Part shown: one piece after another, positions 22,654 to 44,600 of the stretch
Position numbering within the stretch: position 1 is the first letter of the stretch
How the letters are laid out: each line of letters starts with the position of its first letter
Origin: an uncultured Clostridia bacterium
Lineage (GTDB): Bacteria; Bacillota; Clostridia; TANB77; CAG-508
DNA: 64,000 nucleotides
Direction: 5' to 3'
NCBI GenBank assembly: GCA_934182465.1
Contig: CAKPRG010000001.1
Coordinates: 273,549 to 337,548 of the forward strand
The notes under the pieces: model-generated
Database searches by the model: none
The model's input: the letters and a program-made list of their open reading frames with translations, nothing else
What the model was told of the DNA's origin: nothing
Program-made: the position numbers and the translations under genes

Positions 22654-22983
22654 ATTATTCATAGATAGTACCTCCTTAATATTCTAATATAATATATGCA
22701 AAAGATAAAAAAAGTTGAATAAATTGATAAAATTTCATAAAATTACTAAATTTTGAAAAAGTAATAAAAATTTAATATTGAAAAAATGTTATTCAAAACC
22801 TTAAAGTTCCGTAATAAAAAAATTAATGAAAGCTTGTAATAATTGAAAAAAGGCAATTTTTGGCTATGTACAAAATAAAAAAATTGATTTAGTATAAATA
22901 TATATATTAAATAAAGTTAGGTAAAAAAGTGCTATAAATAGTGCTAATAAAGATAACTAAAGAAAAAGGAAAGGGATTTGAAT

Positions 22984-25900
22984 ATGAAGAAAACTTTGAA
23001 AAAAAGCATTGTTTTAGTAATATTATTCGTACTTACAGTTGCAAATTATGGTTTTGCAATTGAAGCTATTGCTACTGAGAGTGCTTCTGTTTTTGAAACA
23101 GGAATATTCAAAAAAAGCTATGTTGATCTAAAAGCATATTTTGATGACAACGAGAAAACGAAAGAAAAACAAGCAAATGTAAACGATAAAGTTACTATAA
23201 CAACAGTATTAAGTCCAAAGGTAGATGGACTTTTGAAAGATGGAACTTTGAAATTAAATCTAGAAGATAGTGATAATGTAAATTTCAAAATAACATCAGT
23301 AACTAAAGATGGTGAAGAAAACACTGAAAATAGCGAAGCAAATAATTCATCTAATACATCAAATTCAGTAATAGATAGCAAAGGAAATGTAGATGATATT
23401 AGTGCAGCATTAAAAGGTGTAGTTGATTTGCAAAAGTCAGAAGAAAGTACTGAAAACAAAACAGTAGATTTACAAAAAGATACAGAAAATACAGCTGCAA
23501 CAGAAACAACTAAAAATGAAACAGAAAATAATGTAGTTGAAAATACCAATAATGCTACAGAAAATGTAGTAAAAGAAACAAATACTACTGATGAAAATAC
23601 TACTAATACAGAAGGAACAATAGATAATTCAACTTCAGAAAATACTACAACTGAAGAAGTAAATGATGAAGCAAAAGTTATTGAACAAGTAACACAAGAA
23701 GCAATAGAAGCTAAAAAAGAAAATTCAAATAGCGAGTTTTCTATCGCATCTGAAAATGAAATTGCTATAAAAAATATGTTAAAAGAAACAAAAATTAAAA
23801 TAACAATTCAATATAAACAAGGAGATACTGTAGATATATCTAATTTATATAAGAAACTAAAATTAGATTTAACAGGAACTTTTGTAAATACAGACTTAGA
23901 AGAAATAGCAATATCAGAAGAAAGCAAATTAACTTTAGAATGGAATTATAGTAAAGATATTGAAGTATCTTCAGAATATACAAAAGTATCTCCATTTAGT
24001 ATCAGTGATGTAAATGGTACTATAGTAAAAAACGAAATATCTGTAAAAAGAGAAATTACAGATGAAAATTATCTACCAATCAAAGAAACAAGTATAAAAA
24101 TACAAGTCCCAGAATTAAAAGGAAAATATCCAACAACAGTAAGTGTAAATGCAAATAAGTTGATGGCTACAAAAGGAGAAGAATTTGGAGCTGTAACTTT
24201 TGATGAAAATAATTGGAATTATGATGAAAAGACACATACATTAAATATATCTGTAAAAAATGAAAATGATGGAAAAGCAATAAATACACAAGGTGAAGAT
24301 ATATATGTAGTGTCTTATAGATATGAAGATTATATAAGTGATGCAAATGTACAACTTGGAAAAGACATTACAGTTAAAGTAGAAGAATATAGTGGAAAAC
24401 AGAATAATATTCAAGAGAAAAAAATAAAAACAGAACAAGAAAAAGAAATTGATGTAGGTGAGTTAATTACATATTCAGTTGGAACAACAGAAGAACCTAT
24501 AAATAAAGGAAAAATAAATGCTAACTATTATTCAGAAACACAATATGAAACAGAATTAAAAACAATTGTAAATGTAAATGTACTAACAAGTGATATGTTA
24601 GACATGATCTTATTAAAAGGAACAAATGACAGTTATATTGATGTAAATGGAAATGTATTTAATGCAGAAGAAGATATTAAATACAAAGGAGTTAATTTTA
24701 ATTATTCAGAAATAAAAAGTATTTTAGAAAATAATGGAACAATAGATTTATTAGATAAAGATGGAAACATTATTTATACAATGAATAGTTCAAATACAAC
24801 ATCAGATGAAGAAGCAAAAATAGAATTAGCAGAATACACATCAAACTTACAAATAAGAATTAATTCAGTAAAAACAAATGGAAACTTAACAGTTGAATTC
24901 GTAAAAGTAATTCAAAAAAGTAATTTTGAACCAACTGCATTTAGTACTTTTAAATCTATAAAAAGTAAAGTAGTTGCAGAAATTAAATATGTTGGAAAAG
25001 ATGATGTATATACTTTAAAAGAAATCGAAACAGAAAAAGCTCTTTCAGAGAGTTACACAAAAGCAAAATTAAGTATAAATAAAGATTACTTAACAACAAC
25101 ACAATCAAATGAAAATGTTGAATTAAAAGTAGAATTAAACAACAATGAAGAAACTAGTGATTTATATAAAAATCCATATTTTGAAATAGTATTTCCTAAA
25201 TATGTAAAATCAGTTGAAGTTCAGAGTATGAACTTAGTTTATGAAAATGGATTGAAAGTAAGTGATTTCCAAACAGAAACTAAAGGAGAAAATGTTAAAC
25301 TAAGAGTTGAATTAACAGGTACACAAGAAGGATTTGGAGAAGGAAACATAGGAAATAGTACAAGTGTTGTAATTAACTGCAAAATTGATGTAGATGAAGC
25401 AACACCAAGAAAAGAAGATCAAATTAAATTATATTATTGCAATGAAGCAGTTACAAATTATGAATCACAAACTAAATGGACAATTGGAAAACAAATACCA
25501 AGTAGCATAATAAAATCTACAAACGGATTTGATGCAGAAGTAATAGAATATCAAGCACCAACAGGATTAATTGCAGTAAATACAATCAAAAATTATGATG
25601 GAAATGCAAGTGAAATTAAATCTGTAAAACAAGGAACTGTTACAAAACAAATTGATAGAGAAAAAGGTTCTCAAATAGCTCAAATGCAAATTACTGCATT
25701 GAACAATACAGGAAATGATTGTACAGATATTGTTTTAGTAGGAAGAATACCATTCCAAGGAAACAAAAATGTAATAACAAATGAAGATTTAGGAACAACA
25801 ACAGATACAACAATAAAAGAAAGAATAAAAGCAGATGGACAAAATACATTAAATGCTGCAATATATTATTCAACAAATCCAGATGCAAATAAAAATTTAA

Positions 25901-28731
25901 CAGATAATGGAAATGGATGGACACAAGAAATTACTAATATTAGCGAAATGAAATCTTACTTAATTGTAGTTGATGGAACTATGAAAGCAGGAGATGTATT
26001 AAAATATACTTATGATTTTGAAATTCCAGAGAATTTACCATATGAAGCAGGAATTTATGGTACATTTTCAGCATACTACAACAACAACTCAGATGTAGCA
26101 GTTGTTTATGAAAGTACATCAGCAGATAAAGTTGGTTTAACTACAGAATCTGGACCAAAAGTAGAAGCTAATTTAAGTGTAGACTTAGGAGATGGAGCAG
26201 AAGTATTAGAAGGTAAAAGATTAAAATACAATTTAAATATTACTAATACAGGAAGTATAGATATAAAAGATGCAGTAGCAAAAGTGAATATACCTAAATA
26301 TACAGAATATACAGAACAAAGAAGTACATCAGGTAATAATGGAGATTATGGATTTGTTAGCTATGTAAATTATGAAAATGCAGAAGATGAAGAAAAAGAT
26401 CAATTAAACCGTTTTAACAAAAATGGAGTAATTGAAATACCAGTAGGAGAAATAAAAGCTGGAGAAAGTTTCGATAGTAGTTTTTATTTAACAGCAAAAA
26501 CTATACCAACATTAGAAGAATACGTATCAGATTTAGGTGTTACATCTGGAAATGACGATTCAGGATATTATTATGAAGATGAATCTGGTAATAAAACTTA
26601 TGTTGATAAAGTTCCAGATTTATGGATTGAAACAAAAGCAACATTAGAAAGCTCAACTTTTGCAAATAGTGTTGAAAGTAATATGATAAGAAATAAAATT
26701 AAAAAAGCTAATTTCTTATCAACAATTTCTATTAAATATGATAATGAATTACAAATTGGATATGAAAGTGATTTAAGTTTAGAATTAGAAAATATTTCAG
26801 GACAGGAATTACATAATGTTAAAGCAATATTACATACAAATCAATATATGCCATATTCTTCAGGAGAATGTGAAAAAGATGGAACACAAATAACATATGA
26901 TGAAAAACAGCATACTGTAATATATAACATTGGTACTTTAGAAATTGATGAAGGTATAAGCTTAAAAACAATTTTAACAACTCTTAATATTCCAAAAGGT
27001 GAAGAAAATTATGATTGTTATTTTGAATTAAAAGCAGATGGTATTGATACAGAACAGAGTACATCAATACCAAGAAAAATTGTAAAATCATATATAACAG
27101 CAACTCAATCAAATACAATTCTAAATAAGCAAATAAAAGAAGAAGAAAGTTTTACATTAACAATAAAAGTAAAAAATGAAGGCAAAATATCTGCAACGAA
27201 TGCAAATTTAAAATTAGAATTTCCAGAAGTATTAAAAATACAAAGTGTAAAATATGATGGTGATTTAAGTGGAATATTACAAGATGGTAATGGAACAAAT
27301 ACTATAGATGCTAAACTTCCTATATTACCAGCCAATAACACAATAAATATTAATATTACTTTTGTAACTAAGAATAATGATGGAAGTGAAAATACAAATG
27401 TAACTTTACAACCAATATTATCAAATGAAAATCAAGATAATATAACTTTAGAAAAAACTGAATTTATAGTAGTAAATGATAAACTAACTGAAAAAGAGGA
27501 AGAAGAAATAAGACAAAAAGAATCTGAAGCTGAGCAAGAAAAACAAAGACAAGAAGATAAAGCTAATGCAGATAAAGAAAGCATGTCAAACAATAATAAT
27601 AATAATAATAATAATTCAAACTCTAGCAATAATAATAATTTATCAAATTCTTCAGATAATTCTAATAGCAATACAAATCAAAATACAAATAATGCAATTA
27701 TAAATAATTCTAATAATAATTCTAATAATTCAAATAACTCAACAACAGTACAAGACGAAAAGTATACTATTGGAGGAATTGCTTGGATTGATGAAAATAA
27801 AGATGGTATTAGAGATGAAAATGAAACTAAATTAAAAGGAGTAAAAGCAAATTTAATTAGTGTTTCAGATAGTAAAGTTATTCAAACAATAGAAACAGCA
27901 GAAGATGGTGCTTATGTATTTAGAAATGTAAGTAAAGGAAAGTATGTAATAACTTTTGAATATGATCAAGAAGTATATGAATTAACAGTATATAGAAAAA
28001 ATGGAGCAGCTGAAAACGTAAATTCAGATGTAACAATGAATAAAAATTCAAAAATTGCAATTACAGATCAAATAACAGTTGAATCAGATGTTACTAATAT
28101 AGATATAGGTTTAATTAGTAGTAAAATATTTGATTTAAAAATAAATAAATATTTAACACATGCAAAAGTATCTGTAAAAGATAAAACAAAAGATTATGAT
28201 TTTGATAATAAAGAAATTGCCAAAGTAGAAATAAAAGCAAAAGATTTAAAGAAAGCTAAAGTAGAATTAGAATATACGATTGTTGTAGAAAATATAGGAA
28301 ATATAGAAGGCTATGTAGAAAAATTAGTTGATTATCTAGGAAATGATTTAGCTTTTGAAGAAAGCGATAATTCAATTTGGTACTTAGGAAATGATGGTAA
28401 ACTATATACAAAAAATTTAGACAATACAAGTTTAAAACCAGGTGAAAAAAGAGAATTAAAATTAAAATTAACAAAACAAATGACAGAAGATAATACAGGT
28501 TTTGTTAGTAATAAAGCAGAAATCGTAAGTAGTTATAGTAACACAAACTTAAATGAAAATACAAAAAATAATTCAAGTGTTCAAAATACAGCAATTTCTG
28601 TAGCAACAGGTAATACAGTTCAAATATTAAGTGGAATTACAATATTAGCAATAACTGCAACAGCGGTATATATGATATACATTGGAAAAATAAAAATTCC
28701 AAAAATAAACGGAAAGAAATTTTATAAGTAA
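22984..28731 (+). CDS. Giant surface protein A1 (about 1915 aa): signal peptide, DUF11-like repeats, poly-N linker, SdrD-B-like domain, C-terminal sorting-signal-like tail
   Basis: Signal peptide KKSIVLVILFVLTVANYGFAIEA. DUF11-like LKYNLNITNTGSIDIKDAVAKVNIP. SdrD-B motif GGIAWIDENKDGIRDENE...DGAYVFRNVSKGKYVITFEY. Tail SVATGN, hydrophobic segment, KIKIPK. ATG 22984 with an RBS. Confidence 0.8.
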   Translation: MKKTLKKSIVLVILFVLTVANYGFAIEAIATESASVFETGIFKKSYVDLKAYFDDNEKTKEKQANVNDKVTITTVLSPKVDGLLKDGTLKLNLEDSDNVNFKITSVTKDGEENTENSEANNSSNTSNSVIDSKGNVDDISAALKGVVDLQKSEESTENKTVDLQKDTENTAATETTKNETENNVVENTNNATENVVKETNTTDENTTNTEGTIDNSTSENTTTEEVNDEAKVIEQVTQEAIEAKKENSNSEFSIASENEIAIKNMLKETKIKITIQYKQGDTVDISNLYKKLKLDLTGTFVNTDLEEIAISEESKLTLEWNYSKDIEVSSEYTKVSPFSISDVNGTIVKNEISVKREITDENYLPIKETSIKIQVPELKGKYPTTVSVNANKLMATKGEEFGAVTFDENNWNYDEKTHTLNISVKNENDGKAINTQGEDIYVVSYRYEDYISDANVQLGKDITVKVEEYSGKQNNIQEKKIKTEQEKEIDVGELITYSVGTTEEPINKGKINANYYSETQYETELKTIVNVNVLTSDMLDMILLKGTNDSYIDVNGNVFNAEEDIKYKGVNFNYSEIKSILENNGTIDLLDKDGNIIYTMNSSNTTSDEEAKIELAEYTSNLQIRINSVKTNGNLTVEFVKVIQKSNFEPTAFSTFKSIKSKVVAEIKYVGKDDVYTLKEIETEKALSESYTKAKLSINKDYLTTTQSNENVELKVELNNNEETSDLYKNPYFEIVFPKYVKSVEVQSMNLVYENGLKVSDFQTETKGENVKLRVELTGTQEGFGEGNIGNSTSVVINCKIDVDEATPRKEDQIKLYYCNEAVTNYESQTKWTIGKQIPSSIIKSTNGFDAEVIEYQAPTGLIAVNTIKNYDGNASEIKSVKQGTVTKQIDREKGSQIAQMQITALNNTGNDCTDIVLVGRIPFQGNKNVITNEDLGTTTDTTIKERIKADGQNTLNAAIYYSTNPDANKNLTDNGNGWTQEITNISEMKSYLIVVDGTMKAGDVLKYTYDFEIPENLPYEAGIYGTFSAYYNNNSDVAVVYESTSADKVGLTTESGPKVEANLSVDLGDGAEVLEGKRLKYNLNITNTGSIDIKDAVAKVNIPKYTEYTEQRSTSGNNGDYGFVSYVNYENAEDEEKDQLNRFNKNGVIEIPVGEIKAGESFDSSFYLTAKTIPTLEEYVSDLGVTSGNDDSGYYYEDESGNKTYVDKVPDLWIETKATLESSTFANSVESNMIRNKIKKANFLSTISIKYDNELQIGYESDLSLELENISGQELHNVKAILHTNQYMPYSSGECEKDGTQITYDEKQHTVIYNIGTLEIDEGISLKTILTTLNIPKGEENYDCYFELKADGIDTEQSTSIPRKIVKSYITATQSNTILNKQIKEEESFTLTIKVKNEGKISATNANLKLEFPEVLKIQSVKYDGDLSGILQDGNGTNTIDAKLPILPANNTININITFVTKNNDGSENTNVTLQPILSNENQDNITLEKTEFIVVNDKLTEKEEEEIRQKESEAEQEKQRQEDKANADKESMSNNNNNNNNNSNSSNNNNLSNSSDNSNSNTNQNTNNAIINNSNNNSNNSNNSTTVQDEKYTIGGIAWIDENKDGIRDENETKLKGVKANLISVSDSKVIQTIETAEDGAYVFRNVSKGKYVITFEYDQEVYELTVYRKNGAAENVNSDVTMNKNSKIAITDQITVESDVTNIDIGLISSKIFDLKINKYLTHAKVSVKDKTKDYDFDNKEIAKVEIKAKDLKKAKVELEYTIVVENIGNIEGYVEKLVDYLGNDLAFEESDNSIWYLGNDGKLYTKNLDNTSLKPGEKRELKLKLTKQMTEDNTGFVSNKAEIVSSYSNTNLNENTKNNSSVQNTAISVATGNTVQILSGITILAITATAVYMIYIGKIKIPKINGKKFYK
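27592..27615 (+). repeat. (AAT)8 trinucleotide microsatellite inside A1, part of a poly-Asn/Ser linker
   Basis: aataataataataataataataat read directly. It encodes N8 within SNNNNNNNNNSNSSNNNN. Confidence 0.8.
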
Positions 28732-28743
28732 GGAGGTGAAATT

Positions 28744-31700
28744 ATGAAAAATAAAAAAATATTGAAATTATTAATAGTATTTTTAATAATATTAAGTCTT
28801 TGTACTGTACTATTGAGAAATACATGGGTATATGCAGAAGATGAAGAAAATATTGATGAAAATTACGTCCAAGAAGAACCAACTAATGAAGAATCAACAT
28901 CAAACGAAGATGAAAATAATGCTATAGCAAGTTTAGATGCAGAACAAGAAAGTAAAATAAACGAAGAATTACAGCAAATGCTAACAGGAATTCCATGGAG
29001 TTATCCAAGTAATCCAATAACAAATAAAACGTTTAATAGTAATCCAAATTATTTCTGTTATCAACATGGTACACCATATGCAACTTCATCAAATATAGAT
29101 GGATTTCAAGGAAATTATAATTATATGAATGCAAGTGGATTAGCATATGTATATAATAACTTAACATTAAAGAAGCCAAGCATAGGTACAAAAATAAGTA
29201 CTGATTATAAGCAAAAAGGAACAAATCCAGGTACAAGAGTTAGCTATTCTAATTTCCATTATAGAAAAGTAAGTCAAAGTTATAGTGGTGGTTTTGCTTT
29301 TGTTTTAGCAAAATATAAACAAACTGCAGCACAGAGAGCTAGTACTGGTTATACAAATGATCCATTACAACATGCTGTATGGGCTCATGCGAGACAATTA
29401 GGAAGTGGAGAAAGTAATCCATTAGCACCTGCTATGCAAGCATTTGATGACTATTATAGTGCTGCAATGAATAATCCAAATATAAATGTAACACCAGGCC
29501 AAAATGTAGGTACAGTAAAAAGTGGTAATAATTATGTTGTTGGACCATTCAAGATGAGTAATTATGTAAGAGCAGTAGATTATAAATACTATGAACCAAC
29601 AGGATACTCAGGTGGACAAAGTTCAGGCAGTGAAAATGAAAAAGATAAAAATAATAATCCTAAATGGAATACAGGAAATACAAATTTACAAGCTAAATTT
29701 GGAACAGCTGCTAATATGCAAGGAACGATTATTAAAGCTGTTGCTGTATTAAATAATGGTAATGAAATAGAATTTCCTGTTCCAGATCCAGGAGCAACAT
29801 TTAATATATCAATTCCTATTTCAAAAGTAGGTAGTGCAGACGAATTAAAAAGTATAAAATTCACATATCAAAGAATTTATGCAACAGGAAATGGTACTTG
29901 GTATGAAGGAAAACAAATTGAACTTACATGGAGTCAAACAAATGTAGATAAAGGATGTTCAACATATTATTGTCAAAATCAAACACCAGGATATGCAACA
30001 CACCATTCATCATCTGTAGGTGGTACCCATAGTTGTACATATACATGGACTTGTTATGATCATTACTCAGGACATGGATGTGGTGGTCATACTAGATATT
30101 GTGGTGGTTGTAAAACAAGAAGTTGGACAGATTCTGAAGGAAAAAAACATAGTGAAAGCTATTGTCCAGGTCATACATATACAATATCAGGTTGTCATTG
30201 CTCTTGTCCAGGACATTCTGCAACACATACATCAACATTTAAATGCTCTCATGGTTACACAAATTGTAGATCTTTTTCTTGGAAAGTTACTAGTATAAAT
30301 GAGGATCATTGCCAAGATGGATTAGAAGCATATGGTAGTTTAGGATCTACAAGAAAAATATATAAAATAAATGTAAATGTGCCACTTACAACAAATGTAT
30401 CAATTTACAAATATATTGTGAAAGTAAATCATCAAAATAATGATTACATTTATGGTAGACAAGATGCAGATGATACAAGTAGAAAAACAAAGACAGATAA
30501 AAATACTAATACAGTAAAAGTTGAAAGAGGAGATAGAATAACATATAGAATAGATATTGTTAATAGTTCAAGATTTGATATTAGACTAAAAGTTAAAGAC
30601 TATTTCCCTTCAAATGTAGAACAAGTTACAGTACCAGGCTCTTTCTATACAGAGAATCAACCAGGAGGAAATCAAAATGGAGCATGGATACAAGTAAACG
30701 CTAGAAAGACAAAAACATTTTATGTTACTGTAGTAGCAAATGCTTTAGAAAGTAGTTATACTAATACGGTTCAAATAATTACAAGAAATGATACAAATCC
30801 ACATATGGAATATGTAAAATATGGTGGACATGGTCCTGGACCAATAGTAAATTTAAGCAATAGATTAAGTGATTCAGATACATATACAATAAAAGAATAT
30901 CAAGTAAACATTAATAAACATATTACGAGTGTAGAACATACAACAAATAGTGAAAAAACTTATGATTCAACAGCACCTAATGAAAGTAACTTAAAAACAA
31001 ATCAAACTGCTGGAACAAGAGTAAATAGAACAGATGAACAAAATCAGAGTGATCCAGTATATGTAGAATATGGTGATAGGGTTTATTATGAAATAGATGT
31101 ATATAATACAAATAATAAAGATTATAGACAAACTAATAATTCGGCTAAACCATATTGGAAGCCAGATATGATACACGTAAATGTAGAAGATACATTGCCA
31201 GCAAAATATAGTGATTTGAAAATAACAATAGAAAATGCAATGAATTCACCTTCTATAACAAAACCAGGTACAAGTAGCACATCAGGTGGAACAATAAAAA
31301 TTAGTGATCTACAAATTGCTGCTAATACACATGCAACAATAAAAATATCATTAGTTGTTGAAGAAGTAAAAGCAGATACTGTTTGTGGAAATACTGCTAA
31401 AATAGTAGGAAAAATAAATAATATAAATAATCGTTATATTAAGAATAATGAAACAGCTTCTCGTTTAACATCAACAGATTATTATAAATTGAATGATTAT
31501 TACATCAATATAGACAAATATGTAAGTTCTTATGATGGATTAATAATGAATCAAAATAATCAAAATCAATTAACAAATGAAACAAGTACAATCAATACAG
31601 ACGAATCTGTTGAAAGACGTGGAAAGAGTGATACAGAAAAAGAAAATTCACCATTTAAGGTTGAAAAAACAGAAACTGTAACATACTCAATTAGATTAGA

Positions 31701-34700
31701 TAATAAATCAACAAATAATGCTACAAAACCAGCAACAAAAGTCAGAACAACAGATATTACTGAAACATTACAACAAGGCTTAGAATTCCAAAATGATGTA
31801 ACAGCAAAAATATTTAAGTCAGATGGTTCAGTAAGAGTAGATAATATAAAAGTAAATATTACAGATAAAGGAAATAATGTATATAACTTAAATATTGGTA
31901 ATAAACAAGGAGAAGAATATACAACATTAAATCCTGGAGAATATATTATTTACTATGTAAAAGTAAAAGTAACAGAAAGCAACATGTATTTATACAACTT
32001 AGAAAATAAAGCAGAAATTACAACTTTAACAAACATAAACAATACTGAAAAAAATCCACAAAGAGTTGTAACTGAGCAAAATAAATATCCAATCAAAAAA
32101 TCTAGCGAATATGTAAAACAAAAAGATTTAGTAATAGCTGGTAAGGTTTGGTTAGATAAAAATCAAGATGGTTATATGACAGAAGATGAAACAAAATTCA
32201 AAGATATTGTAGTACATTTATATGATGCAAAAACAGACAAAATAGTAAATACAGTAAGAACAAATGAAAATGGACTATATACTTTTGGAAGAGTTTATAA
32301 AGCATCAACAAAATATGATGGAAGTTCTGTAATAGGAACTATAGATGAAGAAGGCAACAAGAAAAATTATAAACAAGGTACAGATTTAAATAGTTATTAT
32401 GTAGAATTTGAATATGATGGCTTAATGTATAAATCAACAGAAATTTATTCAAATGATAAACATATATCTGAAAGTTGGTTACAACCAACAGATAGTGGAA
32501 ACTACATTAATGATTCAAATGCTTACGAATTTAAAGATGTAAGAGAACAATTTAACACAAATTATGAAACAATAGGATATAATGTAGGATACAAAGTTGG
32601 AGAAGATAAAAATTCAAATTCTGGAACAACTACATTAGAATATAGCAAAGATAATCATAATAGTACATTATTAGAAGACAGAAACAGATTAATGACAGCA
32701 AGAAGTTTCATAATTTCAAAAGATAAAAACAAATCAGATGGAACAGCTAACAATACAAAATCATTATGGTTATATCCATTAAATAGTTCAAATTATAAAT
32801 TAGCTGAAACAGAATATTTAAAATATATAAACTTAGGACTTGAAGAAAGAGAAGATATAGATATTTCTTTAAAGAAAGATGTATATCAAGTAAAAACAAC
32901 AATTAATGGTGAAGAAGTAATATATGATTACAATCAAGAAAATACAAATAGTGAATATACAAATGATTATGTAATTAAAAAAGCTTATGGAATAGATTTC
33001 TATGAATCTGATTACAAATACAGATATGAACAATACAAAAATGAAAAAGTACAAAATTACAAAGGAAAAGAAAGTGAATTAAATGTTGAGGTAACATTTA
33101 AGATAGCTATTACAAATGAAAACATAAGAGAAAATGAACCATATAGAGAAAATAAAGATGTACCAGTAGATGTTACAATAGATGAACTTGCAGATTACTA
33201 TGATACAAACTTTATGAAATATACTGGTGAAGAGAACAATACAATAAAAGTAAAAACTAAAGATGGTGATTACTTAAAAGATAAAGATATTAAAATTGCA
33301 GAAGCTTGGTATAAATCAAGTGAAGATTCAACTGAATCTAGACAATTAACTTTGTCAAATACTTCAAATTACAATAACGAAAGAAACTTTACTGCAGATG
33401 GATATAATACATTATATATTAGAGGTTTTGATGATATTAAGATTAAAGAAGGCGAAACAGGATATGTATTTGTAAAATATGTATTAGATAAAGAAGAAGG
33501 TACTAGAAACTTAAAGATAACAGATTCAAAAGCAAATAATTTAGGGATTGAAGGAATTGCCGAAATAAATGCTTACTCAACATGGTATGGTGCCGTATCT
33601 GAAGAATATAAGAAAGAAAATCCAGCATACGAAGAAAACTATCCAGCAGGATTAGTTGATAAAGATTCAAATCCAGGAAATATCGGTGATGACAATGGAG
33701 TTTCAACATCAGCAACTGGAAATAAGAGTGCAGATGATACAGGATTATATGAAGATGATACATATAAAACAGGAATACAAATGAATGTAAAAACTATAAC
33801 AAATCCACCAGAAAATGGTGATCCACCAAGTATTGAACAATACAGAGTTTTATCAGGATTTGTATGGGATGATTCAAGATCAGAAAGTATAAATGATAGC
33901 GAAGATAATGTTCAATATGCTGGTAATGGTTTATACAATACAAGTGATACAAAACTTGGAGAAGCAAAATCAAATAAAAATGTATTAGAATTATTAGATA
34001 AATCAAGCGACTATAAAAATATAGTAAATAGATTTAATAGTCCAACAGCAGAACAAAATGACTTCGTAGTAAAAGACGCAAAAGCACAATTAATTGAAAT
34101 TGTAAAAATACCAGAAAATGAAGTTGATCCTTCAAGTGGAGGAACAAAATATTACGAAGAAATAGTAGATGCTAATTGGGCAAGAGTTCAAGAAACAAGA
34201 ACAAACAGCAATGGTAAATATGTATTAAGTGGATTTATTCCAGGTTACTATACAGTAAGATTTACTTATGGTGATACAACTTCAGATGAAATGATGACAT
34301 TTAACGGACAAGATTACAAAACAACAAAATATACAACAGGTGTAGAAAATTATACATATAAACCAGAAGCTGGTGAAACAGAATTAAATACAGAAAAAAT
34401 AAAAGAATATGATAAAATAATGGAAGCATTAGAGGCAGAAAATAAATCTGATGCAAGAGATGACGAAATTGATAGACTAAATGCTATTTCATATTCAGAA
34501 ATAATGACAAATGAAAAAGCTGATACTTTAAAAGGTATAAGTATACCAGAAGGAACAGATAAAGAAGCAAGAAAAGAAACTCTAGCAGAAAAAACTAAGA
34601 TGAATGCAGAAACTGTAACATTCTATGTAAAACCAGAAAAACTAGATTCTTATGAATCAAATGTAACTTATGCAACTTGTACAAATATACCATATGATAA

Positions 34701-36117
34701 AATTAAGACAAGAACATATAATGTAAAAAATATAGATATGGGTATAGAATATAGACCAGAAGCAGAAATTTCTTTAAATAAAGAAATTAAGACAATTGAA
34801 TTAGTTACTTCAGATTCAGAAAAAATTATGAAAGTTGCATTTAAAGATGTAGTAGATTCAGACGGAAAGAAGAAATTAAATGATGCAACAGGTAGAATTG
34901 AAAGAGAAGTTGATTTCGATAATTCAGTCGGATTAGAAAATATACAATTTATTTGCAACAATAACAGACTACAAGGTTTTGCATATATAAATGTAGATGA
35001 CGAAATTTTACAAGGAAGTAAAATCAGTGTAGAATATGAATTTACAGTAACTAACATTAGTGAAGTAGATAGAATCAGTAAAAACTTAGATGTGTTAAGA
35101 TACAAAGAAAATAGTGAAAATGCAATATCAAGTAATAGTACTGATAGAGCAAAATATGTTGAAGAGAATAATTATTTAGGATCTGAAACAGCTGAAAAAT
35201 ATTTACACGATATAGTTTATGAAAAAGATAATAGATATGCATCAGATGATGAATATAGAACTATTGAAAAGACAATGACAACAGGAGATGACAATTATTA
35301 TGGTAGATATTTAGGAAGCACATACTTTACAAGCAATGTTACAGAAAAAGATACAGTAGTAGACTTAAAGATAGATAAGATTTTAGACTACATAGATACA
35401 GACTTATCATTCAAATCATCAAGTAACCAAGATACAGATCATTTCTGGGAAACAACAACTTCAGAAGCTTTAAGAACTGGTGATGGAATAAATGGAAGCT
35501 TAGTAGATCGTAACTTATTCGTAAATGTAAACAAAGATACTACAAATAATACAGAAGACTTAAAATTAGTAAACTTAAAAGGTGTAGCATTTGATTCAGA
35601 CTTAATGAGTAACTTAGCTGTAAGTATGGATGATAGAAACAATGATGATCAAACAGATAATGTAATAAATAAACAATTATCAAAATTCTTAGAACCAAAA
35701 ACAGTAAAAACTACAGCAGAAGAATATTCAGGATATGTAGCATTAACAACAGAAAAATTAATTTCATCAGAAACAGATACTGATAATCTAAGATTTGAAA
35801 ATATAGCAGAGATAATTCAATATACATGTACATCAGGTAGAAGAACAAACTTTGCAACAACAATAGGAAATGTAAATGTAAAAGCAAGTACAGGTGAATA
35901 TATCGAATCATTAAATGAAAAAGATACATCTGCAACAGAGGTAATTACATTATCACCACCAACAGGTTTAGAAAGATATCACAACATAATCTTAAATACA
36001 GTACAAGAAAATTCAAAGACAATAATTATATCAGTAATTGCAATAATAGTAGCCGTAAGCGCTACGGGAGCAATACCTGTATTGATCAAGAAGTATAAAA
36101 ATAGACCAATTAAGTAG
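28744..36117 (+). CDS. Giant surface protein B1 (2457 aa): signal peptide, N-terminal Cys...Gln module (possibly a thioester domain), Cys/His-rich insert, SdrD-B-like domains, SPPTG sorting signal
   Basis: RBS AAGGAGGTG 13 nt after the A1 stop. Two GxxWxDxNxDGxxxxxE prealbumin-like motifs. C-terminal LSPPTG, hydrophobic segment, KKYKNR. Confidence 0.8.
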   Translation: MKNKKILKLLIVFLIILSLCTVLLRNTWVYAEDEENIDENYVQEEPTNEESTSNEDENNAIASLDAEQESKINEELQQMLTGIPWSYPSNPITNKTFNSNPNYFCYQHGTPYATSSNIDGFQGNYNYMNASGLAYVYNNLTLKKPSIGTKISTDYKQKGTNPGTRVSYSNFHYRKVSQSYSGGFAFVLAKYKQTAAQRASTGYTNDPLQHAVWAHARQLGSGESNPLAPAMQAFDDYYSAAMNNPNINVTPGQNVGTVKSGNNYVVGPFKMSNYVRAVDYKYYEPTGYSGGQSSGSENEKDKNNNPKWNTGNTNLQAKFGTAANMQGTIIKAVAVLNNGNEIEFPVPDPGATFNISIPISKVGSADELKSIKFTYQRIYATGNGTWYEGKQIELTWSQTNVDKGCSTYYCQNQTPGYATHHSSSVGGTHSCTYTWTCYDHYSGHGCGGHTRYCGGCKTRSWTDSEGKKHSESYCPGHTYTISGCHCSCPGHSATHTSTFKCSHGYTNCRSFSWKVTSINEDHCQDGLEAYGSLGSTRKIYKINVNVPLTTNVSIYKYIVKVNHQNNDYIYGRQDADDTSRKTKTDKNTNTVKVERGDRITYRIDIVNSSRFDIRLKVKDYFPSNVEQVTVPGSFYTENQPGGNQNGAWIQVNARKTKTFYVTVVANALESSYTNTVQIITRNDTNPHMEYVKYGGHGPGPIVNLSNRLSDSDTYTIKEYQVNINKHITSVEHTTNSEKTYDSTAPNESNLKTNQTAGTRVNRTDEQNQSDPVYVEYGDRVYYEIDVYNTNNKDYRQTNNSAKPYWKPDMIHVNVEDTLPAKYSDLKITIENAMNSPSITKPGTSSTSGGTIKISDLQIAANTHATIKISLVVEEVKADTVCGNTAKIVGKINNINNRYIKNNETASRLTSTDYYKLNDYYINIDKYVSSYDGLIMNQNNQNQLTNETSTINTDESVERRGKSDTEKENSPFKVEKTETVTYSIRLDNKSTNNATKPATKVRTTDITETLQQGLEFQNDVTAKIFKSDGSVRVDNIKVNITDKGNNVYNLNIGNKQGEEYTTLNPGEYIIYYVKVKVTESNMYLYNLENKAEITTLTNINNTEKNPQRVVTEQNKYPIKKSSEYVKQKDLVIAGKVWLDKNQDGYMTEDETKFKDIVVHLYDAKTDKIVNTVRTNENGLYTFGRVYKASTKYDGSSVIGTIDEEGNKKNYKQGTDLNSYYVEFEYDGLMYKSTEIYSNDKHISESWLQPTDSGNYINDSNAYEFKDVREQFNTNYETIGYNVGYKVGEDKNSNSGTTTLEYSKDNHNSTLLEDRNRLMTARSFIISKDKNKSDGTANNTKSLWLYPLNSSNYKLAETEYLKYINLGLEEREDIDISLKKDVYQVKTTINGEEVIYDYNQENTNSEYTNDYVIKKAYGIDFYESDYKYRYEQYKNEKVQNYKGKESELNVEVTFKIAITNENIRENEPYRENKDVPVDVTIDELADYYDTNFMKYTGEENNTIKVKTKDGDYLKDKDIKIAEAWYKSSEDSTESRQLTLSNTSNYNNERNFTADGYNTLYIRGFDDIKIKEGETGYVFVKYVLDKEEGTRNLKITDSKANNLGIEGIAEINAYSTWYGAVSEEYKKENPAYEENYPAGLVDKDSNPGNIGDDNGVSTSATGNKSADDTGLYEDDTYKTGIQMNVKTITNPPENGDPPSIEQYRVLSGFVWDDSRSESINDSEDNVQYAGNGLYNTSDTKLGEAKSNKNVLELLDKSSDYKNIVNRFNSPTAEQNDFVVKDAKAQLIEIVKIPENEVDPSSGGTKYYEEIVDANWARVQETRTNSNGKYVLSGFIPGYYTVRFTYGDTTSDEMMTFNGQDYKTTKYTTGVENYTYKPEAGETELNTEKIKEYDKIMEALEAENKSDARDDEIDRLNAISYSEIMTNEKADTLKGISIPEGTDKEARKETLAEKTKMNAETVTFYVKPEKLDSYESNVTYATCTNIPYDKIKTRTYNVKNIDMGIEYRPEAEISLNKEIKTIELVTSDSEKIMKVAFKDVVDSDGKKKLNDATGRIEREVDFDNSVGLENIQFICNNNRLQGFAYINVDDEILQGSKISVEYEFTVTNISEVDRISKNLDVLRYKENSENAISSNSTDRAKYVEENNYLGSETAEKYLHDIVYEKDNRYASDDEYRTIEKTMTTGDDNYYGRYLGSTYFTSNVTEKDTVVDLKIDKILDYIDTDLSFKSSSNQDTDHFWETTTSEALRTGDGINGSLVDRNLFVNVNKDTTNNTEDLKLVNLKGVAFDSDLMSNLAVSMDDRNNDDQTDNVINKQLSKFLEPKTVKTTAEEYSGYVALTTEKLISSETDTDNLRFENIAEIIQYTCTSGRRTNFATTIGNVNVKASTGEYIESLNEKDTSATEVITLSPPTGLERYHNIILNTVQENSKTIIISVIAIIVAVSATGAIPVLIKKYKNRPIK

Positions 36118-41665: not shown

Positions 41666-41666
41666 T

Positions 41667-44600
41667 ATGAAAAATAAAAAAAGTAGATTAGTTATATGTT
41701 TTATACTAACATGCATAATTGTATTAAGCACCATAATTGGTTTAGCAACTTATGTAAGTGCTAAAGTTGATACAAGTAAATCACAATCTTATTCACAAGG
41801 AAATGGAAATCCTGCACCAGGATATATTACAGTAAGTGATTTGTGGACAAGATATGACATATTATGTTGTGCACACGGAGTTCATTTACCAAGTGCAAAT
41901 CAAACTGTACTTAATTCAGAAAAAGGTAGTGTTACAGAAGCTTATTTAACACAAAACGATATTGGTAAAAAGAATTTTGAACATACTGTTGATTCAACAA
42001 GTAGTTCAGCAAATTCACCATTTAAGTCAGCATCATATACAAATGAGACTTTTGGATATTACAAAGTAAATAATACTTATGTAGCAAAACCAATGGAAGC
42101 ATATATCTTAGCTGAAATGGCAAAAGAACAAATAGTTAGAGGACATGATAGTAATGTTCAAATTGCTTGGTGGAACACAGAAGCTGGTATGAAAGGTGTA
42201 ACAGCTTCTGCTCCAGAAGCATTAACATTAGAAGCACAAGATTTTGAAGCATATATTAAAAAAATTGCAAAATCTACAGATCCAAGCACATATACAACTC
42301 AACAATATGAATTTGAAGTAGATGGAACAAAATATACTGGTCAAGTACAAGCACCAGAATTAAATTACGAACCAAAATATAACAAAGATGCAAACCAAGA
42401 TGGTAAAGAAGACAGATATGATAATATAACAGTTTCTTGGAATGGAGAAAAATATAAAATAGGTCCATTCTCTGTAAATTATGTTGAAAGCAAAGTAAAA
42501 CATGAAGGTAGAGATGAAGTAATGTTTGCAGGTATTACAGATGCTAAAATCTATACAGATTTAGGTGAAGTACCAGCAGACAAATGGAAATTTGTATGGC
42601 TAGAAGGACAAAGAGACGCAAACGATACACAAGAATATCCTCATACAAATGAAGTATTTTATATAGAAATGGATTTTATAGAAAATGCAAAATATTTCAA
42701 AAACTTACATTTCGATTTTAAATATATGAATGCTGGTGGACAATATGATGAACTAGCAGGAACATATTTTAAAGCAACATGGAAACCAATGTCAAAAGCA
42801 CAATATTGTGCAGGTGGATATACAGATAGTGATGGTGATGATCATCCATGTTCACATGGATTCATGAGCAGACATGTTAAATCTTGGACATATTGGTTAC
42901 AATTAACAAGCTTAACATCTGATGAATCACAATTATTAGCTTATGGTATTGTTGGTGCTAGATGGTACAATCCAGCACAATTAGATTTAGACAACAGTAC
43001 AGACTTACCAAAAGATCATAAAGGAAAAGTAGAAATCAAAAAAGTCGTAGTTGATGAAAATGGAAATGAGCTTACATCACTAGATGATTCAAAATTCACA
43101 TTTAAGCTTTATATAAATGATAAATTATACGATACAATTAGAGTAAAAGCTAACGAATCAGTTACAGAAACAATTAAATGGAAAGATGGAGAAGAAACTC
43201 CAACATATAGAATTGAAGAAGTAAATCTTCCAGATGAATATACAGTAAAAGAAATAGAAAATGCTTCTGGTACAATGGCAGAAGAAGCAACAGTTAAAAT
43301 AAAAGCTATTAACAAAGTTAAACCACATAAAGGATACTTAAAAATAGAGAAAAAAGTAACAGAAGTTGCAGAACAAGATGAAACATATAAATTTAATATT
43401 TATATAGATAGTGTTTTAAAAGATCAAATTGCAATAACAATTCCAGCAGGTCAAACAGGAAATAGTGTTACAGTAGGACCTTATGAATGGAATGGAAGTG
43501 ATGCTCCAGTATATAGAGTAGAAGAAACAGAAATTCCAGAAAATGTAACACAATTCAACATGATAAATGAAAAAGGAAAGTTAGTTGCAGGAGATGAAGC
43601 TACACCAGTTACAGTAACAGCAATAAATGATAATAGTGATAATAAAGATCATGAAGGAACAATAGAAATTACAAAACAAGTTACAGAATTAGCTAAAGAA
43701 GACGAAATATATAAATTTAATGTTTATATAAATGGTGAATTAAAAGACCAAGTACAAATTACTGTTCCAGCAGGTCAAACATCAAATACAGTAACAGTTG
43801 GACCATTCAAATGGAAAGGTGATAAAGCACCAAGCTATGAAGTAAAAGAAGTTGAAATTCCATCAGGTGTTAAACAAGTTAATATTGTTAACTCAACAGG
43901 AACTTTAATAGATGGAAAAAATGGACAAAAAGTTATTGTAACAGCTATAAATAATAATGGTGGAGATAAACCAGAAGAAAATGAAGCAAAATTAGTTATT
44001 ACTAAAAAGGTTGACGGAAATGCATCAACAGATAAACAATTTAAATTTAAAATTACTATTGATGGAACAGTTTATTATGCACAAATAACAAAAGATTCAA
44101 GTTGGTCACAAACAGTAAAATGGAAAGAAGGAGAACAAGCTCCAACTTATAGTGTAGAAGAAATTGATATTCCAGATGGATATGAAAAAGTAAGTATTAC
44201 AAATGCATCTGGAACATTAGAAGCTGATAAAGATGTATATGTAGAAGCTTTAAATAAAGGTGATGATAAAGAATATTCTGGAACAATTCGTGTTACTAAA
44301 AAAGTAGAAAATTCAACAGATACAAATAAGAAATTCAAATTTAAAATTACTATTGGAGATACAACTTATACAAAAGAATTAGCAAATGGTGAAAGTTGGA
44401 CTGAAAATGTAAAATGGATTGGAAAAGATAATGCACCTAAGTATAAAGTAGAAGAAGTTGAAGTACCAGATGGATATAGCATTGTAAGTGTAGAAAATGC
44501 CGAAGGTACAATGGAAGAAAATAAAACAGTTATAGTAAAGGCAATAAATAGAGACAATGATGATAAAGAACATCAAGGTCAAATAACAGTAAAAAAAGAA

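What the first reader, a model, noticed from the sequence alone, without database searches (positions are those of the whole stretch)
29926..30320. Extraordinarily Cys/His-rich 130-aa insert in a secreted protein of an anaerobe
B1 residues about 395-525 (DKGCSTYYCQNQ...HSCTYTWTCYDHYSGHGCGGHTRYCGGCKTRSW...CPGHTYTISGCHCSCPGHSATHTSTFKCSHGYTNCRSF...DHCQ) contain about 17 Cys and 13 His with recurring CPGH, CxC and GCGGH elements. This composition is highly atypical for Gram-positive surface proteins, which are usually Cys-poor. It suggests a metal-binding (Zn/Cu/Ni) or disulfide-knot module inserted into the adhesin stalk. It is absent from the paralog B2.
Basis: seen in the sequence. Interest (0 to 1): 0.7.

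Follow-up and report, generated by a model that had tools for sequence, protein, structure and literature searches.

The report
Hypervariable Cys/His-rich knob in adhesin head
A giant cell-wall-anchored surface protein of an uncultured human-gut Clostridia bacterium carries, at the tip of its outermost domain, a roughly 100-residue stretch that is one quarter cysteine and histidine, matches no described domain family, is probably held together by zinc, and is exchanged between strains like a cassette.

Summary
That is about 17 times the background frequency, and 14 of the protein's 20 Cys lie here.

It is not an artefact. The exact protein occurs on 34 independent contigs, and codon usage is native.

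The segment lies in the N-terminal head domain, not the stalk. It expands a hairpin tip between two conserved motifs (GC-S/T-x-Y-x-C and C-x-H-G-H/Y-x-x-C). That tip is 0 aa long in one homolog, 15 aa in paralog B2 and up to about 250 aa in others.

The family comprises about 25 giant [ST]PPTG-anchored proteins from metagenomes. Almost all have a Cys/His-rich module at this site. No Pfam, NCBIfam, PDB-sequence or fold match was found.

Within near-identical proteins the module is replaced wholesale by unrelated Cys/His-rich versions, while the Cys and His themselves are invariant within an allele group.

Four features favour a chain of zinc-knuckle-like units forming a variable, core-less knob:
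- the ligand spacing;
- 5% aliphatic or Phe residues;
- odd Cys counts;
- a confidently predicted CxxC-hairpin-CxxH unit.

Metal binding is inferred, not shown. The head also carries thioester-domain-like motifs, but profile and fold tests did not confirm that assignment.

The parts
28744..36117 (+). ORF B1, 2457 aa: a giant surface protein with signal peptide, head domain, long Ig-like stalk and C-terminal sorting signal
   Evidence: Weak SdrD_B and CarboxypepD_reg hits in the stalk. The exact protein is found on 34 contigs.
28744..28836 (+). Sec-type signal peptide (aa 1-31, MKNKKILKLLIVFLIILSLCTVLLRNTWVYA); no twin-arginine motif
   Evidence: Read directly from the translation.
29053..29067 (+). 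Conserved F-C105-Y-Q-H108 motif. It fits the thioester-domain [YFL]-C-hydrophobic-hydrophilic motif and is the candidate bond-forming Cys.
   Evidence: C105 and H108 are conserved in at least 90% of alignment A1. The motif definition is from PMC6194298.
29368..29382 (+). Q209-H-A-V-W213, invariant Q and W on a predicted helix. It resembles the TQxx-hydrophobic-W motif of thioester domains.
   Evidence: Invariant columns in A1. Helix 134-142 of the model.
29494..29955 (+). Beta-sandwich (FN3/Ig-like) subdomain of the head, aa about 251-404. Its last strands lead into the Cys/His module.
29956..30267 (+). Cys/His-rich hypervariable module, aa 405-508 (13 Cys, 12 His; 4.8% aliphatic or Phe residues; 53% G/S/T/Y)
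30100..30174 (+). Zinc-ribbon-like unit C453-G-G-C456, beta-hairpin (KTRSWT/KHSESY), C474-P-G-H477
   Evidence: It is predicted as a hairpin with pLDDT 73-81 in context. It is the only confident part (pLDDT 74-91) of the isolated module. The same CxxC-hairpin-C(P)G(H) layout is seen in P0005, P0003, P0012 and P0024.
30244..30267 (+). Family-wide closing motif C501-S-H503-G-Y-T-N-C508
   Evidence: H503 is invariant, and C501 and C508 are conserved in at least 90% of alignment A2. C501 and H503 are also present in B2.
30313..30315 (+). Q524, a conserved Gln 16 residues after the module. It is the candidate thioester partner of C105.
   Evidence: Present in every aligned sequence that reaches this column (19 of 20; P0011 is truncated before it), including P0014, which has no Cys/His module, and B2. 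Its role is inferred only.
35953..36114 (+). Cell-wall sorting signal: S-P-P-T-G (aa 2404-2408), hydrophobic segment, KKYKNRPIK tail
   Evidence: Homologs carry [ST]PPTG, VPPQG or APPTG.
42807..42875 (+). Vestigial counterpart in paralog B2: C384-AGGYTDSDGDDHP-C398-S-H400-GFMSR-H406

Best explanation
The segment is a hypervariable, Cys/His-rich knob at the distal tip of a sortase-type anchored giant adhesin of an uncultured gut Clostridia bacterium. It expands the tip of a beta-hairpin in the N-terminal head domain. The proposed mechanism is inferred. After Sec export, the polypeptide has almost no hydrophobic residues, so it folds around several Zn(II) ions, or another soft divalent metal. 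The ions are held by short-spaced Cys/His pairs (CxxC, CxC, CxxH, HxH, C-x-H-x-H-xx-C). This gives a chain of small knuckle or ribbon units closed at the base by the conserved C437/C501/H503/C508 set. Because stability rests in the ligands, the residues between them are free to change. Strains exchange whole versions of the module by recombination. The result is a compact, probably protease-resistant and highly variable surface. This surface determines what the adhesin tip binds or what host antibodies and phages see. It sits next to conserved Cys and Gln residues that may form a thioester 'warhead'. Shown here: the composition, position, family-wide occurrence, cassette-like replacement, conservation of Cys and His, non-random spacing, and absence from all described families. 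Inferred: metal binding, the identity of the metal, the role in ligand or antigen specificity, and the thioester.
For: Enrichment is far beyond chance. The module sits between conserved anchors at one site in about 25 homologous giant proteins. Its length runs from 0 aa (P0014) and 15 aa (B2) to about 250 aa (P0002).

Composition across 24 variants is 65% G/C/S/T/H/Y and only 8.9% A/V/I/L/M/F (4.8% in B1). Adjacent Cys/His pairs are depleted (z = -7.9), while i+2 pairs (z = +5.4) and i+3 to i+5 pairs are enriched against shuffles.

In 15 alleles of B1, 12 of 119 columns vary but none of the 27 Cys/His positions does.

Cys counts in homologs are often odd and range from 5 to 29. His is enriched as strongly as Cys, and H503 is the only invariant residue of the module.

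The unit C453xxC456-hairpin-C474xxH477 is predicted confidently both in context and in isolation.

P0002 and P0011 carry 8-10 tandem C-x3-4-H-x-H-x3-6-C units that repeat the closing motif.

The signal peptide is Sec-type, which disfavours a pre-assembled Fe-S cofactor.

Cassette behaviour:
- Three unrelated Cys/His versions occur between identical flanks inside one cluster of at least 90% identity.
- B1 against P0024 shows 74% and 66% identity in the flanks but 32% in the module.
- B1 against P0005 shows 22% and 35% in the flanks but 45% in the module.
- dS is 0.23 in the module against 0.048 in the stalk between two close alleles.
Against:
- The isolated module is modelled poorly (mean pLDDT 54).
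- No zinc-finger or zinc-ribbon family matches by sequence or fold.
- dN/dS in the module is 0.17, so that one pairwise comparison gives no direct signal of positive selection.
- The invariance of Cys and His within alleles would equally fit disulfides or another chemical role.
- The spacing statistics come from related, though highly diverged, sequences.
Confidence: 0.5

Rival explanations
1. The module is a disulfide-knotted mini-domain with no metal. The Cys residues pair oxidatively outside the cell, and the His residues are incidental or serve binding.
For: The location is extracellular. The Cys positions C405, C437, C501 and C508 are conserved. All Cys are invariant within alleles. The low hydrophobic content needs some form of cross-link.
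Against: Cys numbers are frequently odd (7, 9, 11, 13, 15, 21) and range from 5 to 29 between homologs, unlike knottin or EGF families. His is enriched to the same degree, and one His is the only invariant residue. The spacing is dominated by i+2 and i+3 pairs, which is typical of chelating pairs. The host is a spore-forming gut Clostridia lineage living anaerobically. There is no match to any disulfide-rich family.
Confidence: 0.17
2. The module is a metal-capture or metal-buffering device whose purpose is the metal itself, such as Zn, Ni, Co or Cu acquisition, storage or detoxification at the cell surface. It would work in the manner of metallothioneins, Hpn or streptococcal histidine-triad proteins.
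For: The ligand density is about 1 per 4 residues. GCxCxGH strings are reminiscent of bacterial metallothionein (from my own knowledge, not tested). The module is exposed on the surface.
Against: There is only one module per 2457-aa protein, at the far end of a long stalk, which is a costly way to hold a few ions. The sequence and length are replaced wholesale between strains, which is unexpected for a housekeeping metal function. Paralog B2 and homolog P0014 do without it. No metal transporter genes lie in the 64-kb window. There is no metallothionein hit in Pfam.
Confidence: 0.12
3. The module is a functionless low-complexity expansion of a loop. It would be tolerated because it is on the surface, and its composition would be a by-product of slippage or duplication.
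For: Length varies strongly, and tandem unit amplification occurs in P0002 and P0011. A 17-nt direct repeat encodes the two CPGH motifs. Parts of the module are modelled with low confidence.
Against: The Cys/His-rich character is retained at the same site in nearly all family members and in all three swapped versions. None of 27 Cys/His positions varies where 12 of 92 other positions do. The spacing is non-random. dN/dS is 0.17, which indicates constraint. No DNA-level tandem array is present in B1.
Confidence: 0.08
4. The segment is an assembly or frameshift artefact, or a recently acquired foreign insert.
For: The local G+C is higher than in the rest of the window (36% against about 27%). 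An alternative-frame ORF is open at 30020-30298.
Against: The identical protein is on 34 contigs from three sources. GC3 equals that of the gene, and the higher G+C is explained by Cys, His, Gly, Thr and Ser codons. Both flanks are in frame with all homologs. The alternative-frame product is a nonsense hydrophobic string.
Confidence: 0.01

Closest known systems
Class II thioester-domain (TED) adhesins of Gram-positive bacteria (BaTIE 6FWV, SaTIE, EfmTIE86, TIE of pLS20)
   Same: The architecture is shared: signal peptide, distal head, Ig-like stalk and sortase-type anchor. The head has a [FY]-C-hydrophobic-hydrophilic motif, an invariant Q-x-x-hydrophobic-W on a helix within a helical bundle, an inserted beta-sandwich, and then a hairpin carrying a conserved Gln.
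   Different: The Pfam TED and TED_2 models do not match, although they do match the pLS20 control. hhalign against pLS20 is negative. Fold searches gave only a non-significant hit to BaTIE (E = 0.14, TM 0.15) and FN3 domains. The head is about twice as large. From the TED papers consulted here, no described TED carries a Cys/His-rich module in that hairpin.
Zinc ribbons and zinc knuckles (rubredoxin-like CxxC...CxxC/H hairpin pairs)
   Same: C453xxC456, a two-stranded hairpin, then C474xxH477. Short-spaced ligand pairs occur throughout, and there is no hydrophobic core.
   Different: There is no sequence or fold match to any described family. From my own knowledge, zinc ribbons are mostly intracellular, whereas this module is extracellular and anchored to a Gram-positive wall. 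The units are irregular and hypervariable rather than a fixed domain.
Variant-specific surface proteins (VSPs) of Giardia (from my own knowledge, not tested here)
   Same: They are gut-lumen surface proteins with about 12% Cys and many CxxC motifs. They are reported to bind zinc, are highly variable between variants, and are thought to resist proteases. This is a functional analogy.
   Different: VSPs are eukaryotic and unrelated in sequence. The whole ectodomain is Cys-rich, they are not His-rich, and their variation comes from switching expression among a gene family rather than from allelic cassette exchange.
Bacterial metallothioneins (SmtA/BmtA) and His-rich metal binders (Hpn; Pht histidine-triad proteins) (from my own knowledge)
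   Same: There is a high density of Cys and His, and strings such as GCGCxGH.
   Different: There is no Pfam hit. The module is embedded in an adhesin head, is strain-variable, and is absent from the paralog.
Hypervariable ligand-binding regions of adhesins, including targets of diversity-generating retroelements (DGRs)
   Same: Variation is sharply localised at the distal binding end of a surface protein, between conserved flanks.
   Different: There is no template repeat for the region in the 64-kb window, and no reverse transcriptase appeared in the Pfam scans of 24 of the window's 30 ORFs of at least 150 aa. The variation consists of whole-segment replacement and indels, not adenine-directed point changes.

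Membership tests
Thioester domain (TED; Pfam PF08341 / PF20610; class II) | Bond-forming Cys in a [YFL]-C-hydrophobic-hydrophilic motif | tested here: met
   F-C105-Y-Q is present. The Cys is conserved in at least 90% of 20 aligned heads; the exceptions are an N-terminally truncated sequence and a misaligned one. The motif definition is from PMC6194298.
Thioester domain (TED; Pfam PF08341 / PF20610; class II) | TQxx-hydrophobic-W motif on helix alpha2 | tested here: inconclusive
   Q209-H-A-V-W213 has invariant Q and W and lies on predicted helix 134-142. The Thr is replaced by L, A, I, M, G, S, C or V.
Thioester domain (TED; Pfam PF08341 / PF20610; class II) | Conserved bond-forming Gln on a C-terminal strand after an inserted beta-sandwich | tested here: inconclusive
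   Q524 is present in every aligned sequence that reaches this column (19 of 20; P0011 is truncated before it) and follows the FN3-like subdomain.
Thioester domain (TED; Pfam PF08341 / PF20610; class II) | Match to the family profiles | tested here: not met
   None of the 20 heads hits TED or TED_2 at E <= 1. The pLS20 control hits both. hhalign of A1 against pLS20 gives probability 0.5%. TEDs are very divergent: the pLS20 TED itself finds no solved TED by phmmer.
Thioester domain (TED; Pfam PF08341 / PF20610; class II) | Fold similarity to solved TEDs | tested here: not met
Thioester domain (TED; Pfam PF08341 / PF20610; class II) | An actual Cys-Gln thioester (mass deficit of 17 Da, reactivity with amines) | not testable with these tools
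   This needs mass spectrometry of the expressed head.
Zinc ribbon / zinc knuckle | Two short-spaced ligand pairs flanking a beta-hairpin | tested here: met
   C453xxC456, strands 457-462 and 468-473, then C474xxH477. The pLDDT is 73-91 in two independent models. The same layout occurs in several homologs.
Zinc ribbon / zinc knuckle | Match to a described zinc-finger or zinc-ribbon family by sequence or fold | tested here: not met
Zinc ribbon / zinc knuckle | Bound metal in tetrahedral Cys/His coordination | not testable with these tools
   This needs ICP-MS, EXAFS or a solved structure.
Disulfide-rich repeats (knottin, EGF-like and similar) | A fixed, even number of Cys with conserved spacing, and a family profile match | tested here: not met
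   Cys counts run from 5 to 29 and are often odd, and only four Cys columns are conserved. There is no Pfam or PDB match.
Bacterial metallothionein | Match to the family profile, in a small stand-alone protein | tested here: not met
   There is no Pfam hit. The module is an internal part of a 2457-aa protein.
DGR variable region | A nearby template repeat and a reverse transcriptase | tested here: not met
   blastn of the segment against the window with word size 7 finds only chance matches of 30 nt or less. The Pfam scans of 24 of the window's 30 ORFs of at least 150 aa found no RT.
Sortase-anchored Gram-positive surface protein | N-terminal signal peptide together with a C-terminal xPxTG motif, hydrophobic segment and basic tail | tested here: met
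   The signal peptide ends in VYA at aa 31. S-P-P-T-G lies at aa 2404-2408, followed by a hydrophobic stretch and KKYKNRPIK. Homologs carry the same motif. No sortase gene lies in the window.

The most novel reading that the evidence does not exclude
The Cys/His cassette is not just a decorated loop. It may be a metal-dependent gate or specificity module for a covalent (thioester) adhesion site. It sits at the tip of the hairpin that carries the conserved Gln524, so in the folded head it would lie against the conserved Cys105. By swapping cassettes, strains would retarget or re-tune a covalent warhead. Zinc availability or redox state in the gut lumen could then switch adhesion on or off. A related possibility is that its thiolates directly capture Cys-rich host mucin domains.
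Probability: 0.1. Interest if true: 0.85.

Novelty: new variant of a known kind. Interest (0 to 1): 0.58.

Why it matters
Gram-positive wall-anchored proteins are typically almost free of cysteine. A module that is one quarter Cys and His would therefore be a new structural solution for building a surface-exposed, core-less and freely variable binding or antigenic knob in an anaerobic habitat. This one lies at the business end of a 2457-aa adhesin. It recurs across a whole family of uncharacterised giant proteins of uncultured human-gut Clostridia and is exchanged between strains as a cassette.

It also points to an unclassified head-domain family with thioester-like motifs. Strain-level cassette types could serve as markers of host or niche specificity. 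The module is small enough (about 100 aa) for direct biochemical testing.

Tried and rejected
**Searches on the module and head that found nothing**
- A word-indexed homolog search with the module plus short flanks found nothing.
- The profile search with the head alignment found only 3 fragments.
- Pfam and NCBIfam searches on the module, the head, all 20 aligned heads and four other module variants found no family.
- PDB sequence searches with the single sequence and with both profiles found nothing.

**Fold searches**
- Foldseek against the PDB with the head model gave no hit at E <= 0.001.
- The afdb50 library was not available.

**Testing the thioester-domain idea**
- hhalign of the head profile against the pLS20 TED was negative.
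- An attempt to build a TED profile failed, because the word-indexed search returned one homolog.
- phmmer of the pLS20 TED against the PDB found no TED.

**Genome-collection scans**
- The scan for relatives of the head failed with the alignment, which has no conserved stretch.
- The same scan with the single protein found no relative.
- The second scan, with MreB, only identified the lineage as uncultured human-gut Clostridia MAGs at 90-92% identity.

**Hypotheses rejected**
- DGR or template-repeat origin: rejected.
- Frameshift or assembly artefact: rejected.
- Positive selection by dN/dS: not supported (0.17). The elevated dS points instead to old, recombining alleles.

**Literature**
- Four full-text literature searches were run. 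The first returned the thioester-domain papers used here; none turned up a description of such a module.
Full report
**The observation**

The coordinates 29926-30320 lie inside a 2457-aa ORF (28744-36117, +), in frame, and cover residues 395-526.
- The segment holds 14 Cys and 13 His.
- Residues 405-523 contain 14 of the protein's 20 Cys and 13 of its 30 His (hypergeometric P = 6e-15 and 3e-10).
- Cys is 11.8% and His 10.9% of the segment, against 0.70% and 0.68% in the other long ORFs of the window.
- The richest 119-aa stretch elsewhere has 8 Cys+His, against 27 here.

**It is not an artefact**

- The identical protein is on record from 34 contigs (NCBI, ENA, Logan), within a cluster of 85 members at 90% identity or more.
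- Third-position G+C is 10.1% in the segment against 10.7% in the gene. The locally higher G+C (36%) simply reflects Cys, His, Gly, Thr and Ser codons.
- The flanks on both sides align in frame to the paralog and to all homologs.
- No second copy or template of the segment exists in the window.

**Context**

- The window is chromosomal DNA of about 26% G+C. It carries mreBCD, a PBP2-type gene and minC upstream, and spoIIE downstream.
- MreB is 90-92% identical to that of uncultured Clostridia MAGs from human gut metagenomes.
- Two tandem gene pairs encode giant proteins: A1/B1 (22978-28731 and 28744-36117) and A2/B2 (36491-41665 and 41658-48911).
- A1, B1 and A2 give SdrD_B-type hits, and A1 and A2 also DUF11 hits; B2 matched no Pfam family.
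- B1 has a Sec-type signal peptide. At its C-terminus it has SPPTG, a hydrophobic segment and a basic tail, which together form a sortase-type sorting signal.
- B1 and B2 align over their C-terminal 1250 residues at 25% identity. One further short match pairs B1 C501-S-H-G-Y with B2 C398-S-H-G-F.

**Where the segment sits**

An exhaustive search of 1.8 billion representative proteins with residues 309-569 gave 22 relatives. Most are 2400-3300 aa long. A profile search added three fragments.

Aligning the head regions (alignment A1) shows that the Cys/His segment is not a private insert. Almost every family member has a Cys/His-rich stretch at exactly this site. The stretch lies between a conserved opening (G-C-S/T-x-Y-x-C) and a conserved closing motif ([FY]-x-C-x-H-G-H/Y-x-x-C-x-x-F-x-W).

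Its length varies widely:

| Protein | Length of the Cys/His stretch |
|---|---|
| P0014 | 0 aa (a tight hairpin) |
| B2 | 15 aa |
| Most family members | 70-150 aa |
| P0011 and P0002 | about 190 and 240 aa |

In P0011 and P0002, 8-10 tandem C-x3-4-H-x-H-x3-6-C units repeat the closing motif.

- Within the module, H503 is invariant.
- Y408, C437, C501 and C508 are conserved in at least 90% of sequences.

An AlphaFold2 model of residues 74-565 was built with 20 homologs (mean pLDDT 79.9). It shows:
- an N-terminal lobe of strands and helices;
- the module, drawn as a series of short hairpins of mixed confidence (pLDDT 44-87), emerging from the end of the sandwich;
- long, confident strands that return after the module.

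The module is therefore in the head domain, not in the stalk.

**What the module looks like**

- Across 24 variants, 65% of residues are G, C, S, T, H or Y. Only 8.9% are A, V, I, L, M or F (4.8% in B1). No ordinary hydrophobic core is possible.
- Cys and His are spaced non-randomly. Adjacent pairs are depleted (z = -7.9). Pairs at i+2 are enriched (z = +5.4), and pairs at i+3 to i+5 are also enriched, compared with composition-preserving shuffles.
- One unit, C453-G-G-C456, a beta-hairpin, then C474-P-G-H477, has the layout of a zinc ribbon or knuckle pair.
  - It is predicted with pLDDT 73-81 in context.
  - It is the only confident part (pLDDT 74-91) when the module is modelled alone.
  - The same CxxC-hairpin-CxG(H) layout recurs in P0005, P0003, P0012 and P0024, flanked by GCGCxGH and GCHCxCPGH strings.
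- Cys counts are often odd and range from 5 to 29.
- B2's minimal loop still offers four ligands (C384, C398, H400, H406).

Together with the Sec signal peptide and the anaerobic habitat, these features favour zinc, or another soft metal, over disulfides or Fe-S clusters. No metal could be measured here, so this remains an inference.

**No known family matches**

- Pfam and NCBIfam gave no hit for the module, the head, every aligned head or four other module variants.
- PDB sequences gave no hit to the single sequence or to either profile.
- Fold searches gave no significant hit.
- The fold search with the isolated module rests on a poor model (mean pLDDT 54), so that negative result is weak.

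**Variation**

The module is the most variable part of a variable head.
- In 15 alleles of B1 (98-100% identical), 8-10% of columns vary in the head against 2.5% in the stalk. Within the module 12 of 119 columns vary, yet none of the 27 Cys/His positions does.
- Between two of these alleles:

| Region | dS | dN/dS |
|---|---|---|
| Cys/His module | 0.23 | 0.17 |
| Rest of the head | 0.12 | 0.32 |
| Stalk | 0.048 | 0.10 |

  These values point to older, recombining allele segments rather than to a simple positive-selection signal.
- Inside the cluster of P0005 (at least 90% identical), about 95 residues between identical flanks occur in three unrelated versions, all Cys/His-rich.
- B1 against P0024 shows 74% and 66% identity in the flanks but 32% in the module. 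B1 against P0005 shows 22% and 35% in the flanks but 45% in the module. Modules therefore move between otherwise dissimilar heads.
- On a larger scale, a strain carrying allele P0001 has the same gene order and 91-96% DNA identity. The exception is a block of 67% identity or less that covers the 3' third of A1 and the 5' part of B1.

**A possible thioester head**

The head carries three conserved features that fit the motifs of thioester domains as defined in PMC6194298:
- F-C105-Y-Q;
- an invariant Q209-x-x-V-W213 on a helix;
- a Gln (Q524) 16 residues after the module, present in every aligned sequence that reaches this column (19 of 20; P0011 is truncated before it).

The domain order (lobe with helices, inserted beta-sandwich, returning hairpin with the Gln) resembles class II TEDs. 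In P0014 the Gln follows the hairpin turn directly, so in B1 the module would sit at the tip of that hairpin, next to the putative bond.

Membership is not established:
- The Pfam TED models miss all 20 heads, although they detect the pLS20 control.
- hhalign against pLS20 is negative.
- Foldseek gives BaTIE only at E = 0.14 and TM 0.15.
- TEDs are notoriously divergent. The pLS20 TED itself finds no solved TED by phmmer.

I treat the thioester as an open lead, not a finding.

**Verdict**

- The composition is real and far beyond chance.
- The module belongs to a family-wide, undescribed feature: a cassette-like hypervariable Cys/His-rich module at the tip of the head of giant wall-anchored proteins of gut Clostridia.
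- The most likely mechanism is a chain of zinc-knuckle-like units that gives a core-less, variable and probably protease-resistant knob, which shapes binding specificity or antigenicity.
  - I put the metal-stabilised reading at about 0.5-0.6.
  - I put the specificity or antigenic role lower.
- Rival readings are listed with their tests: a disulfide knot, a metal-scavenging device, or a functionless low-complexity expansion.
- The most novel reading not excluded is a metal-dependent, swappable gate for a covalent adhesion site.

Noticed in passing
window 26304-30263 compared with locus L084: A strain carrying allele P0001 has the same A-B-A-B gene order and 91-96% DNA identity to the window. 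The exception is a block of 67% identity or less that covers the 3' third of A1 and the 5' part of B1. The tail of one giant protein and the head of the next are exchanged together.
   Followed up: partly
Proteins P0005, P0054, P0060 and P0062 (one cluster at 90% identity or more), residues about 455-555: About 95 residues between identical flanks (TGCT... and ...CEHDHTEC) exist in three unrelated versions, all Cys/His-rich. Of the 155 variable columns in the first 1000 aa, 87 fall within this 110-aa region.
   Followed up: yes
Protein P0021, residues 914-1268: One homolog has a second Cys-rich array of about 360 aa (43 Cys) in its stalk. It is built of CxxCxGxG units and gives a weak, sub-threshold hit to the DnaJ zinc-finger repeat (E = 0.0016). 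This would be another zinc-finger-like module in an extracellular protein of this family.
   Followed up: partly
window 28744-30312 compared with locus L085: Between two alleles with 98% protein identity, synonymous divergence is 0.12-0.23 in the head and 0.048 in the stalk. This suggests that head segments are older alleles maintained or imported by recombination.
   Followed up: partly
window 22978-48911: There are two tandem pairs of giant genes (A1/B1 and A2/B2), totalling about 8500 codons. The start of B2 overlaps the end of A2 by 8 nt. A1 contains a long Asn/Ser low-complexity linker (NNNNNNNNSNSSNNNN...). No sortase gene lies in the window.
   Followed up: no
window 30020-30298 (+): A 92-aa ORF is open in another frame inside the Cys/His region. 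Its product is a nonsense hydrophobic string. It is most likely a by-product of the locally stop-poor composition, not a gene.
   Followed up: partly
window 56198-59956 (+): This ORF encodes a 1252-aa protein with leucine-rich repeats and a C-terminal type I dockerin domain. That hints at a cohesin-dockerin surface assembly system in this organism.
   Followed up: no
window 51756-53276 (+) and 53304-54563 (+): A protein with WG-containing beta repeats is followed by a 419-aa ORF with no Pfam match. Both lie directly downstream of spoIIE.
   Followed up: no
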